Below are positions 15,988 through 17,126 of a stretch of 34,083 nucleotides of DNA, piece by piece (position 1 is the first letter of the stretch; each line of letters begins with the position of its first letter). A program made the translations under genes and the position numbers. A model generated the notes under the pieces. The model was not told where the DNA came from. It was given only the letters and a program-made list of their open reading frames with translations, and did no database searches. Origin of the DNA: a virus. The stretch lies in IMG/VR virus record IMGVR_UViG_3300048904_000313, positions 73,468-107,550 of that record, one strand, 5' to 3'.

Positions 15988-16390
15988 TGACCCGGAGGGG
16001 ACTCGAACCCCTATCTCTCGGTGATGGATCCAGTGCAGTCGATTACGGGATCATCGGTGGTGCTTCAAGCTGGAGCGAGAACTTGAGCCTGACGCTCGCC
16101 GCTGCCTCTGCCAGTTGGGCTACCGGGGCTCGTGGTGCCCCGGGGAGGTCTCGAACCTCCACTGTCACGGTGAGAGCTGAGCTTAAGCCTGAGCTTCAGC
16201 TTTACCAGGAGGGCCTCCTGGCATCCGGTCGCTCAACCGGTAACCTACCCATACACACCGCCTTTGGGTGGCATGGGCAGGAGTCTAGGGGTGTTGCCGC
16301 CCGCGCGTCTCTGCCTTCTTGACTGGAAGGCGTACGCCAGCCGTCTTTCAGGCGGGGGCCGGCCGGCGGAGCCAGCGCGGGCGGCGGCTC
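15988..16390 (-). ncRNA. Large structured RNA with tRNA-like (Leu-type D arm) modules lacking an anticodon loop
   Basis: Three hairpins, then T arm GGAGG-TTCGAGA-CCTCC plus CCGGGGC-ACCA, then GCCCCGG-TA-GCCCAACTGGCAGAGGC, a ~90-nt insert, and a second T arm AGGGG-TTCGAGT-CCCCT plus CCGGGTC-A. Confidence 0.7.
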
Positions 16391-16391
16391 A

Positions 16392-17126
16392 TCAGGCCAG
16401 CAGCCGATCGAACACAAACTTGCCGGCGGTCTGCTGCGTGACCTCGTGGCGGTTTGCCTCCTCGACGGCATGCTTGACGGCGTCGATGAAGACGTTCACC
16501 CGCTCCAGGAGCTCGTCGCGGCGAGCGCGACTCATGGCTCCGGAGAGCTTGGTGGTGGTCCACTCGCCCACGATCTCGTCGGAGGTGAAGACCTCGGTCT
16601 GAGCGGGGTGCCGATCCGTGGCGGGGTACTTCACCAGGACCTGCGGGACCTTCTTGGTCTTGAAGGAGCCGACCGGCTGCGTACGGTACAGCGCGGTGTC
16701 GTAGTCGAGCTCCCACACCTCGGAGGGGTCCAGGGTCGGAACCTTCGAGATCATGGTGCGGAAGTCGACCAGCTGCTTCTCGAGGAAGAGCAGGAACGGC
16801 ACCGGCGCGGTGAGAAACGGGGTGTCCTCGCCCGGGAGCCGGATGCTGCCTCGTGCCTGCGTGTTGGCGACGTCCTTCGTCAGCGTGACGTCGATCAGCT
16901 GCGAGAGCTTGGTCGCCACGAGGTTCAGGTCGTCGGCCACATGACGCTGGACGACCACGCCCTCGTCGGGGTACCGGTCACCCTCCTCGTCGCGCGGCTT
17001 GTAGGTCTTGGAGAAGCCACCGTAGAGGGCGGGCTTCTGGAGGTTGTGGTAGACCGCGGTGACGTCGTTGTTGATGCGGCTCTTCTGGCCCTTTTCAGCA
17101 GCGACGATCTGGTTCAGCTGGGTCAA
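16392..17126 (-). CDS. Conserved-looking 244-aa protein of unknown function
   Basis: TTG start with RBS AGAAGGGAAG and its own promoter; LNQIVAAEKG, KTYKPRDEEG, LLFLEKQL, KTKKVP, ATDRHPAQ, SGAM, AVEEAN. I recall similar proteins in actinobacteria (unverified). Confidence 0.85.
   Translation of the reverse strand: MTQLNQIVAAEKGQKSRINNDVTAVYHNLQKPALYGGFSKTYKPRDEEGDRYPDEGVVVQRHVADDLNLVATKLSQLIDVTLTKDVANTQARGSIRLPGEDTPFLTAPVPFLLFLEKQLVDFRTMISKVPTLDPSEVWELDYDTALYRTQPVGSFKTKKVPQVLVKYPATDRHPAQTEVFTSDEIVGEWTTTKLSGAMSRARRDELLERVNVFIDAVKHAVEEANRHEVTQQTAGKFVFDRLLA

What the first reader, a model, noticed from the sequence alone, without database searches (positions are those of the whole stretch)
15988..17126. 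Unknown 244-aa protein plus a ~400-nt RNA in which one tRNA 5' half can pair with either of two 3' halves
Seen, directly after the stop at 16392: hairpins at 16296-16385 and 16244-16281 and CCAGGAG/CTCCTGG. Then comes 3'-half #1 (CTCACCGT, a 6-nt link, T arm, CCGGGGC-ACCA; 16133-16174). After 3 nt comes a 5' half (GCCCCGG, Leu-type D arm, GCGGCGAG; from 16129). After an insert comes 3'-half #2 (TCACCG, 6 nt, T arm, CCGGGTC-A; ends 15988). The 5' half pairs perfectly with the upstream half, as a permuted fold with encoded CCA reminiscent of two-piece tmRNA. It pairs with one mismatch with the downstream half, as a linear fold with a large insert replacing the anticodon loop. The insert is too short for a group I intron. 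Gene, RNA and the 8-tRNA cluster share one promoter. Inference: an undescribed protein-RNA system with alternative, possibly aminoacylatable tRNA-like folds.
Basis: partly seen in the sequence, partly recalled or inferred. Interest (0 to 1): 0.9.

Follow-up and report, generated by a model that had tools for sequence, protein, structure and literature searches.

The report
Two-headed tRNA-mimic RNA beside DUF7873

Summary
Its upstream "permuted fold" is real. Its "linear fold" is not: 3' half #2 pairs with its own downstream strand (15981-15975), with all 7 pairs covarying in ten relatives. The linear pairing is no better than shuffled columns.

The RNA has two tandem domains. Each is a long irregular stem capped by a circularly permuted tRNA-like head: T arm, 7-bp acceptor hairpin, 2 nt, D arm, and no anticodon loop.

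The 244-aa ORF is DUF7873 (7.8e-83). The RNA follows this gene in 80 of 80 bacterial loci, in 69-73 of 80-85 viral loci, and in phage homologues at 28-31% identity. In five whole Streptomyces genomes the only full-length model hit lies just after DUF7873.

Ro60/Rsr was not found in 6 of 10 carrier genomes or in 3 complete phages. This phage does encode Rsr, which has its own array of seven Y-RNA-like units upstream.

The closest known kind is YrlA, but the region scores 25 bits against a cut-off of 69 and lacks the GNCGAA motif.

The encoded ACCA is not conserved (22 of 101 distinct first heads). Expression, processing and protein-RNA binding were not tested.

This scan has reported the same pair on other DNA many times; I found no paper that describes it.

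The parts
16392..17126 (-). DUF7873 protein gene (244 aa, TTG start)
   Evidence: Pfam PF25283 matches at 7.8e-83 over residues 1-243. There are 421 homologues at E<=1e-5. The AF2 model has pLDDT 90.2.
16296..16385 (-). Hairpin H1, directly after the stop codon
   Evidence: The outer stem GCCGCCCGCGC/GCGCGGGCGGC keeps pairing through changes on both strands in L096, L098, L099 and L001 (alignment).
16244..16281 (-). Variable hairpin H2
   Evidence: It is present with a different but self-complementary sequence in L096, L097, L099 and L001, and is deleted in L098.
16225..16240 (-). Hairpin H3, CCGG-UUGAGCGA-CCGG
   Evidence: It is invariant in ten close relatives. The same hairpin and loop occur in NiceHouse, Racecar and Phendrix.
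16205..16221 (-). Variable hairpin H4 (CCAGGAG/CTCCTGG)
   Evidence: It is replaced by other self-complementary sequences, such as GCCCGCAAGGGC, in relatives.
16067..16202 (-). Domain A: closing stem plus tRNA-like head A
   Evidence: RNAalifold on A3 pairs columns 44-81 with 226-262. CM R1 scores 133.9 bits at window 16056-16207; the window is one of the 40 training sequences. The conserved 3'-strand motif UCUCGCUCCAG lies at 16080-16070.
16144..16160 (-). T arm A (GGAGG UUCGAGA CCUCC)
16123..16143 (-). Acceptor hairpin A: CCGGGGC, loop ACCACGA, GCCCCGG (7 bp)
   Evidence: Cells are 100% paired and 4 of 7 pairs show changes on both sides in ten relatives. There are 51 distinct stem sequences across the family.
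16104..16122 (-). U8-A9 linker and Leu-type D arm A
   Evidence: TAGCCC or TGGCCC starts this arm in 94 of 117 first heads.
15909..16052 (-). Domain B: closing stems plus tRNA-like head B
   Evidence: CCCGUA (16049-16044) pairs with UACGGG (15921-15916), and CUGG(A)UC (16033-16027) pairs with GACCAG (15938-15933). Both covary.
15996..16012 (-).
15975..15995 (-). Acceptor hairpin B: CCGGGUC, loop ACUUCGA, GACUCGG (7 bp)
   Evidence: Cells are 100% paired and 7 of 7 pairs show changes on both sides.
15956..15974 (-). UG linker and D arm B (GUCG UAACGGCAA CGGC)
18948..20744 (-). Context: Rsr/Ro60-like gene (598 aa, TROVE plus vWA)
   Evidence: Pfam TROVE 5.9e-8, VWA_2 2.5e-4 (22.1 bits, below its 27-bit cut-off); phrog_850 6.7e-43.
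20786..22166 (-). Context: array of seven Y-RNA-like units interleaved with tRNA-Phe, Leu and Asp

Best explanation
The region is one copy of a widespread, apparently undescribed gene-RNA pair. It consists of a DUF7873 protein gene and, directly downstream on the same strand, a structured non-coding RNA.

Shown:
- The RNA core (16240-15909, with two more hairpins back to 16385) has two tandem domains.
- Each domain is a long irregular stem capped by a circularly permuted tRNA-like head: variable link, T arm, 7-bp acceptor stem closed by a loop, 2 nt, D arm, and no anticodon loop.
- The RNA travels with DUF7873, not with Ro60.

Inferred:
- The RNA is made as one transcript with, or just after, the DUF7873 mRNA.
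- It works together with the DUF7873 protein as a ribonucleoprotein, by analogy with Ro60 and Y RNA.
- The conserved internal-loop motif UCUCGCUCCAG in the stem of domain A is a candidate protein-binding site.
- The two tRNA-like heads engage factors that recognise the tRNA elbow and acceptor arm. Candidates are RNase P, the CCA-adding enzyme, modification enzymes, and nucleases or toxins aimed at tRNA.
- The setting is RNA damage or phage-host conflict, suggested by the surrounding tRNA cluster, rsr, Y RNAs, and the Acb5- and PNKP-like neighbours seen in relatives.
For: Structure:
- RNAalifold on a structure-blind alignment of ten relatives gives 88 pairs, 28 of them with compensatory changes.
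- The hairpin model is 93.6% paired, 14 pairs covary, and 0 of 500 shuffles reach it.

Forward association:
- 80 of 80 bacterial loci have a 7/7 permuted module within 600 nt after the stop, and 63 have two. Background elsewhere in those loci is 0.008 per kb.
- 69 of 80 viral loci have a module.
- CM R1 finds a full-length hit just after the gene in 73 of 85 viral and phage loci. That is 52 of the 64 loci not used to train it. All hits are on the gene strand.
- Six phages whose proteins are only 28-37% identical also carry the RNA.

Reverse association:
- In five whole Streptomyces genomes, the single full-length R1 hit lies 50-250 nt after DUF7873.

Ro independence:
- No TROVE match in the complete genomes of NiceHouse, Racecar and Phendrix, or in 6 of 10 bacterial carrier genomes.
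- In G005, TROVE lies 113 kb away and has its own core hits just upstream.

Other:
- Neighbouring genes differ between Streptomyces and Myxococcus, so only the gene and the RNA stay linked.
- The motif T[CT]GCTC[CT]A occurs in 104 of 160 downstream stretches against 1 of 160 controls.
Against: - There is no evidence that the RNA is transcribed, stable or processed. Only assembled contigs of RNA libraries were available, one of them a 57-kb contig that may be DNA.
- There is no evidence that the protein binds RNA. Its fold has no informative relative.
- Linkage alone would also follow from simple co-transcription.
- In this window rsr lies only 1.8 kb upstream on the same strand, so Rsr binding cannot be excluded here.
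- Two viral loci (L042, L043) show no RNA by either method, and a few show only one head.
- An earlier internal check of the same idea on other DNA priced 'protein binds the RNA, independent of Ro' at only 22 in 100.
Confidence: 0.55

Rival explanations
1. The RNA is simply this phage's YrlA/YrlB pair. On this view it consists of Y RNAs that bind the phage (or host) Rsr/Ro60 encoded 1.8 kb upstream, and DUF7873 is an unrelated neighbour.
For: - The architecture is of YrlA type, with T arm, closed acceptor stem and D arm on a terminal stem. There is a weak Rfam YrlA hit at 16074-16191 (25.2 bits, E 0.007).
- It lies on the same strand and within 4 kb of rsr, which is the criterion used by Chen et al. 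2014 (PMC4201824).
- The 3' strand AGUUCUCGC is shared with Y unit 1 at 22038, and R1 matches that unit over its full length at 23.9 bits.
- M. smegmatis has tandem YrlA and YrlB processed from one precursor.
Against: - The score is far below Rfam's cut-off of 69 bits.
- There is no GNCGAA motif on the minus strand between 15000 and 16875.
- There is no GGUG[CU]GA[ACU]G motif of the kind that opens each of the seven units next to rsr.
- The RNA follows DUF7873 in genomes where no TROVE gene was found.
- Rsr here already has seven candidate partner RNAs directly upstream.
Confidence: 0.15
2. The RNA acts without the protein. It would be a conserved 3' UTR or processing module, for example a set of RNase P or other nuclease entry sites or a stabiliser. 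It would shape expression of DUF7873 or maturation of the downstream tRNAs, or it could be a free-standing tRNA decoy.
For: - It lies immediately after the stop codon, with no terminator-like site between gene, RNA and tRNAs.
- In phages it usually sits inside tRNA clusters.
- The 7-bp acceptor stems with G at +1 (93 of 101 distinct first heads) match what RNase P needs.
Against: - In bacteria the pair stands alone, with no tRNA genes after it.
- About 330 nt with 28 covarying pairs, conserved from Actinomycetota to Myxococcus and cyanophages, is far more than a processing signal needs.
Confidence: 0.2
3. This is the reader's model: a conformational switch in which one tRNA 5' half pairs either with the upstream 3' half (permuted, CCA-ended, like two-piece tmRNA) or with the downstream 3' half (linear, with a large insert).
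For: In the window alone, GCCCCGG can pair with CCGGGUC with one mismatch, and CGGCGA can pair with UCACCG.
Against: - Across ten relatives the acceptor helix of the linear fold is 68.6% paired, and the model is matched by 77 of 500 shuffles.
- In L001 the linear acceptor helix would have two mismatches.
- The downstream 3' strand instead covaries at all 7 positions with 15981-15975.
- No tmRNA model or ARAGORN hit.
Confidence: 0.02
4. The region holds two decayed or fragmentary tRNA genes with no function of their own.
For: The region sits in a tRNA cluster, and D arm A equals that of the phage's tRNA-Leu.
Against: - The order is permuted (T arm before D arm).
- Both acceptor hairpins have perfect 7-bp pairing kept by compensatory changes.
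- The RNA is conserved across phyla next to one protein family.
Confidence: 0.01

Closest known systems
YrlA-type bacterial and phage Y RNAs with Ro60/Rsr (Rfam RF02553; Chen et al. 2014, PMC4201824; Wang et al. 2018, bioRxiv 10.1101/312249)
   Same: - Both have a circularly permuted tRNA-like module: T arm, loop-closed acceptor stem, D arm, and no anticodon loop.
- In both, the module is carried on a stem formed by flanking sequence.
- Both occur in tandem with a second RNA and are found in actinobacteria and their phages.
- The 7-bp acceptor stem matches M. smegmatis YrlA, which is cut by RNase P and receives CCA.
   Different: - The region scores 25.2 bits against the 69-bit cut-off.
- It has no GNCGAAN0-1G motif.
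- Two heads sit in one conserved unit of about 330 nt.
- It has its own conserved stem motif, UCUCGCUCCAG.
- It is linked to DUF7873 rather than to rsr, and it occurs in genomes where no TROVE gene was found.
[quoted passage not shown] I know it only through Wang et al. 2018; the paper itself is not held.
   Same: Both involve a tRNA-like RNA predicted to partner a protein other than Ro60 in an RNA-repair context.
   Different: - b7a-tRNA is described as closely resembling a genuine, non-permuted tRNA.
- Its partner is a Band-7 protein next to RtcB.
- Here the heads are permuted and doubled, and the partner is DUF7873.
Two-piece (permuted) tmRNA
   Same: In both, the gene order places the T arm, acceptor 3' strand and CCA before the acceptor 5' strand.
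   Different: - The best tmRNA-family hit is cyano_tmRNA at 17.4 bits against a cut-off of 70, and ARAGORN finds none.
- There is no G3-U70 pair.
- Unlike tmRNA, the region has a true D arm.
- No tag reading frame was identified.
- Gordonia phage Phendrix carries a standard tmRNA as well as this RNA.
[quoted passage not shown]
   Same: They are bacterial non-coding RNAs that rebuild the tRNA acceptor and T-loop elbow without an anticodon arm.
   Different: They are different Rfam families with different connectivity, and none matched this region.

Membership tests
YrlA (Rfam RF02553) | Reaches the curated gathering score of the covariance model (69 bits) | tested here: not met
   25.2 bits, E 0.007, at 16074-16191(-). 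Relatives score 32.9-37.1 bits.
YrlA (Rfam RF02553) | tRNA-like module in the order T arm, closed acceptor-like stem, D arm | tested here: met
   Both heads show this order, with covariation.
YrlA (Rfam RF02553) | GNCGAAN0-1G motif near the 5' end (Chen et al. 2014) | tested here: not met
   No GNCGAA on the minus strand between 15000 and 16875.
YrlA (Rfam RF02553) | Encoded within about 4 kb of rsr on the same strand | tested here: inconclusive
   True in this window: rsr is at 18948-20744(-), and the RNA starts about 2.6 kb downstream of the rsr stop (16385). The same RNA, however, occurs without any TROVE match in 3 complete phages and 6 of 10 bacterial genomes.
YrlA (Rfam RF02553) | Bound by Rsr/Ro60 | not testable with these tools
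   This needs immunoprecipitation.
tmRNA, two-piece or permuted | Match to a tmRNA model or ARAGORN; alanine identity pair G3-U70; tag reading frame | tested here: not met
   ARAGORN finds none. The best hit is cyano_tmRNA at 17.4 bits against 70. Position 3:70 of acceptor A is C-G.
   68.6% paired in the acceptor helix; 77 of 500 shuffles are as good for the whole model. ARAGORN and the Rfam tRNA model call nothing here.
DUF7873-associated two-headed tRNA-mimic RNA (not published; defined by this scan) | Lies directly after a DUF7873 gene on the same strand | tested here: met
   The gene is at 16392-17126(-) and the RNA at 16385-15909(-).
DUF7873-associated two-headed tRNA-mimic RNA (not published; defined by this scan) | Two permuted heads with 7-bp acceptor hairpins about 143-155 nt apart, and the stem motif T[CT]GCTC[CT]A | tested here: met
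   The heads start at 16160 and 16012, 148 nt apart. The motif is at 16078-16071. R1 scores 133.9 bits, but the window was in the training set.
DUF7873 (Pfam PF25283) | Whole-protein score above the curated cut-off of 27 bits | tested here: met
   278.4 bits, over residues 1-243 of 244.

The most novel reading that the evidence does not exclude
Head A is opened in vivo by RNase P at G16129, with 3' trimming to the encoded or added CCA, as happens to M. smegmatis YrlA. This would give a two-piece RNA with a free tRNA-Leu-like acceptor end. It would carry discriminator A73, a possible A15-U48 pair, G18-G19 and a Leu-type D arm, which are the anticodon-independent identity elements of bacterial LeuRS (my own knowledge). 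DUF7873 would present this end either for aminoacylation or as a decoy for host toxins that modify or cut tRNA 3' ends. The pair would then be a Ro-independent tRNA-end protection or counter-defence particle.
Probability: 0.1. Interest if true: 0.9.

Novelty: new variant of a known kind. Interest (0 to 1): 0.68.

Why it matters
Permuted tRNA-mimic RNAs (YrlA) are so far known only as partners of Ro60. Here the same design is doubled within one RNA and tied to a different, uncharacterised protein. More than 560 bacterial species representatives and 283 of 448 candidate viral stretches encode a relative of that protein, and the RNA follows the gene in nearly all of the 160 best loci examined. 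That would mean tRNA-mimic ribonucleoproteins are a broader class than the Ro/Y RNA system.

It would also give DUF7873 a testable role, and it would explain unannotated 400-500-nt gaps in the tRNA clusters of cultured phages such as Phendrix, GodonK, NiceHouse, Racecar, phiRSL1 and the Klebsiella jumbo phages.

This window is a useful case because one phage carries both systems side by side: Rsr with seven Y-like RNAs, and DUF7873 with its RNA. Their partners can therefore be compared in a single infection.

Tried and rejected
- Expression: public runs holding the stretch were root and soil metagenomes plus two soil metatranscriptomes. Only assembled contigs could be laid. One RNA-library contig of 57 kb covers a relative's gene and RNA but may be DNA. 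A 270-nt RNA-library contig lies inside the gene. No ends, strand or level could be read, so this says nothing either way.
- Protein fold: Foldseek against PDB gave nothing at E<=0.001. VIA-align gave a best match of 3kdq_A, a protein of unknown function, at Z 9.2 and rmsd 7.7 over 147 residues; the remaining matches were generic helical hits. The ESM Atlas returned only DUF7873 itself. A profile search against PDB sequences gave E>=0.22. PHROGs gave no family.
- Promoter and terminator scan: none on either strand of 14900-17700. The scan models sigma-70-type sites only.
- A local partner GAUCCCG (16052-16046) for 3' half #2, suggested by a weak mascRNA hit, fails in L001 and is superseded by the covarying downstream strand.
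- An outer stem CCACCGA/UCGGUGG seen in the window is not kept in L001.
- Literature: no paper mentions DUF7873. Burroughs and Aravind 2016 and Sim et al. 2020 are not held.
- RNAalifold on the 40-sequence cross-phylum alignment recovered only the head (16 pairs). The closing stems were not resolved at that divergence.
- The acceptor and T stems in that set were pre-selected for pairing by my scanner, so their pair counts there are circular. The independent evidence is A3 and the background rates.
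Full report
**Observation.**
- CTCACCGT is at 16174-16167, followed by a 6-nt link.
- T arm A is at 16160-16144. CCGGGGC-ACCA is at 16143-16133, followed by CGA.
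- GCCCCGG is at 16129-16123, followed by UA. The Leu-type D arm is at 16120-16104 and GCGGCGAG at 16102-16095.
- A second set follows: TCACCG (16024-16019), T arm B (16012-15996) and CCGGGUC-A (15995-15988).
- ARAGORN tRNAs in the window but nothing here.
- The 244-aa ORF at 16392-17126(-) is a full-length DUF7873 protein (7.8e-83).

**What the RNA is.** An Rfam scan gave only a weak YrlA (Y RNA-like) hit at 16074-16191 (25.2 bits; cut-off 69). Its alignment nevertheless showed the logic of the region: T arm, a closed acceptor stem, then a D arm.

The hairpin is CCGGGUC, loop ACUUCGA, GACUCGG (15981-15975), then UG and a D arm at 15972-15956. The region therefore holds two complete permuted tRNA-like heads, not one 5' half with two 3' halves.

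**Test of the two models.** I fetched nine close relatives whose proteins are 62-86% identical. I aligned the RNA with MAFFT, which uses no structural information (A3).
- RNAalifold predicts 88 pairs, 28 of them with compensatory changes. They form hairpin H3, domain A (closing stem, T arm, acceptor hairpin, D arm) and domain B, which has three closing helices plus the same three head elements.
- In the hairpin model the cells are 93.6% paired and 14 pairs change on both sides. No shuffle out of 500 reaches these values, and sliding the partners by 1-3 columns collapses pairing to 31-47%.
- Both acceptor hairpins are 100% paired, with 4 of 7 and 7 of 7 covarying pairs.
77 of 500 shuffles do as well, and its acceptor helix is 68.6% paired.
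- The linear fold is therefore rejected and the permuted fold confirmed.

**Link to DUF7873.** In the annotated phages NiceHouse, Racecar and Phendrix, the DUF7873 gene sits in the tRNA cluster and is followed by an unannotated gap of 409-533 nt. That gap holds the same two heads.
- Viral contigs: 69 of 80 loci have at least one perfect module within 600 nt after the stop, and 41 have two. Elsewhere in those loci the rate is 0.041 per kb over both strands.
The best 80 loci are mostly Streptomyces and relatives. All 80 have a module and 63 have two, against a background of 0.008 per kb.
- Distant phages: six phages with proteins 28-37% identical (hosts Klebsiella, Rhizobium, Vibrio, Ralstonia, Pseudanabaena and Gordonia) also carry the RNA.
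- Covariance model: a model of domain A (R1, from 40 diverse sequences) finds a full-length hit just after the gene in 73 of 85 viral and phage loci. That is 52 of the 64 not used for training. Every hit is on the gene strand.
- Reverse direction: in five whole Streptomyces genomes of 7.2-9.6 Mb, the one full-length hit per genome lies 50-250 nt after DUF7873.
- Neighbouring genes are otherwise unrelated in Streptomyces and Myxococcus.
- A stem motif, T[CT]GCTC[CT]A, occurs in 104 of 160 downstream stretches against 1 of 160 controls.

**Relation to Ro60.** This window does encode an Rsr/Ro60-like protein at 18948-20744(-), with TROVE and vWA domains and phrog_850 at 6.7e-43. By the criterion of Chen et al. 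2014 (same strand, within 4 kb), the RNA could therefore be taken for a YrlA. Four observations argue otherwise.
1. The stretch directly upstream of rsr (20786-22166) holds seven units. Each opens with GGUG[CU]GA[ACU]G and closes with GGUCUC or AGUUCUC, and in each the ends pair into a terminal stem. The units differ in sequence but stay complementary. Several contain YrlA-type heads, the best scoring 44.1 bits. The same array precedes TROVE in relative L097. The opening motif resembles the metazoan Ro-binding strand GGUCCGAAGGU (my own knowledge) and the GNCGAA motif of Chen et al. These units are the natural Rsr partners.
2. The DUF7873 RNA has neither motif.
3. No TROVE match exists in the complete genomes of NiceHouse, Racecar and Phendrix, or in 6 of 10 bacterial genomes that carry the pair.
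4. In G005, which has both, TROVE lies 113 kb from DUF7873 and has its own tRNA-like core hits just upstream.

One resemblance remains. The 3' strand AGUUCUCGC is shared with Y unit 1, which R1 matches weakly over its full length (23.9 bits). This hints at common ancestry, or at a shared partner in this phage.

**CCA and processing.**
- Among close relatives it occurs in 6 of 10. The others have ACUU, ACUA or ACUG, and L097 carries an 88-nt insert in the loop.
- Across the family, 22 of 101 distinct first heads have ACCA and 29 have NCCA.
- However, 84 have C as the second loop base, and 93 have G at +1. The loop is 4-88 nt long, with a median of 8.
- The geometry is exactly that of tRNA: a 7-bp acceptor stem, a 2-nt link and a 5-bp T stem with a UUCRANN loop.
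- M. smegmatis YrlA also has a 7-bp stem. It is cut by RNase P and receives CCA, giving a two-piece RNA (PMC4201824). The same processing is plausible here but untested.

**Protein.** The AF2 model is confident (pLDDT 90.2), with long helices and a sheet of long hairpins. Fold and profile searches return nothing informative beyond DUF7873 itself. Nothing here shows that it binds RNA.

**Literature and earlier notes.** No held paper mentions DUF7873. The YrlA papers describe only Ro-linked RNAs. Wang et al. 2018 cite a prediction by Burroughs and Aravind 2016 of a Band-7-associated tRNA, so the idea of a non-Ro partner for a tRNA-like RNA exists in print. A 2026 preprint on three tRNA-mimic families concerns other RNAs.

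The scan's own notes show the same pair reported many times on other DNA, with the same reading. One later check kept the observation at 90 in 100 but priced protein-RNA binding at 22 in 100. I retested structure, linkage and Ro independence here and reached the same result. I could not test binding.

**Mechanism.** The two-domain RNA structure and its linkage to DUF7873 are shown. It is inferred that gene and RNA are co-transcribed. No terminator or promoter pattern separates them, but the scan models only sigma-70 sites. It is also inferred that the protein binds the conserved stem of the RNA, and that the tRNA-like heads recruit or distract tRNA-recognising factors. Rivals are given with odds. 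Expression data were not informative.

Noticed in passing
window 20786-22166 (-): An array of seven Y-RNA-like units lies directly upstream of the phage rsr gene, interleaved with tRNA-Phe, tRNA-Leu and tRNA-Asp. Each unit opens with GGUG[CU]GA[ACU]G, closes with GGUCUC or AGUUCUC, and has complementary ends. At least three (at about 22120, 21562 and 21414) contain YrlA-type heads, and at least two (21782-21860 and 20786-20874) are short. Seven such units beside one Ro60 gene is more than the two or so described per bacterium. The same array precedes TROVE in L097.
   Followed up: partly
window 15856-15889 (-): The conserved hairpin GGGUGGCGCCCUC-AAGGUGA-GGAGGGUGUCACCC lies directly before tRNA-Arg (15853). 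It is kept in all close relatives. In L098 an extra tRNA is inserted between the end of the DUF7873 RNA and this hairpin. It may be a processing signal.
   Followed up: no
L012 (Rhodococcus phage NiceHouse) 7266-8246: Directly after the DUF7873 RNA come tRNA-Lys(ttt) and a Band-7-like membrane protein gene. This recalls the Band-7-associated tRNA predicted by Burroughs and Aravind 2016, as cited in bioRxiv 10.1101/312249.
   Followed up: no
L096-L099, L182-L184 (close relatives): The relatives share the gene order TROVE, small ORFs, an Acb5-like gene (PF26761), DUF7873, the RNA, tRNAs, then HAD_SAK_2 and HAD_PNKP genes. This looks like an island for counter-defence and RNA-end repair. I did not identify the equivalent ORFs in the window; 13227-14915 gave no Pfam hit.
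   Followed up: no
L097 5982-6069: An insert of about 88 nt, itself G+C-rich and self-complementary, sits inside the loop that closes acceptor stem A. Loops of up to 90 nt occur elsewhere in the family, so the loop tolerates large insertions.
   Followed up: no
L014 (Gordonia phage Phendrix) 4072-4600: A standard one-piece tmRNA (Rfam 89 bits) lies unannotated in the same tRNA cluster as the DUF7873 RNA.
   Followed up: no
window 11661-13127 (-) and 5592-7199 (-): The window also holds a family-2 glycosyltransferase gene and the terminase large subunit gene. The window is the last 34 kb of a 107.5-kb virus record that CheckV rates complete.
   Followed up: no
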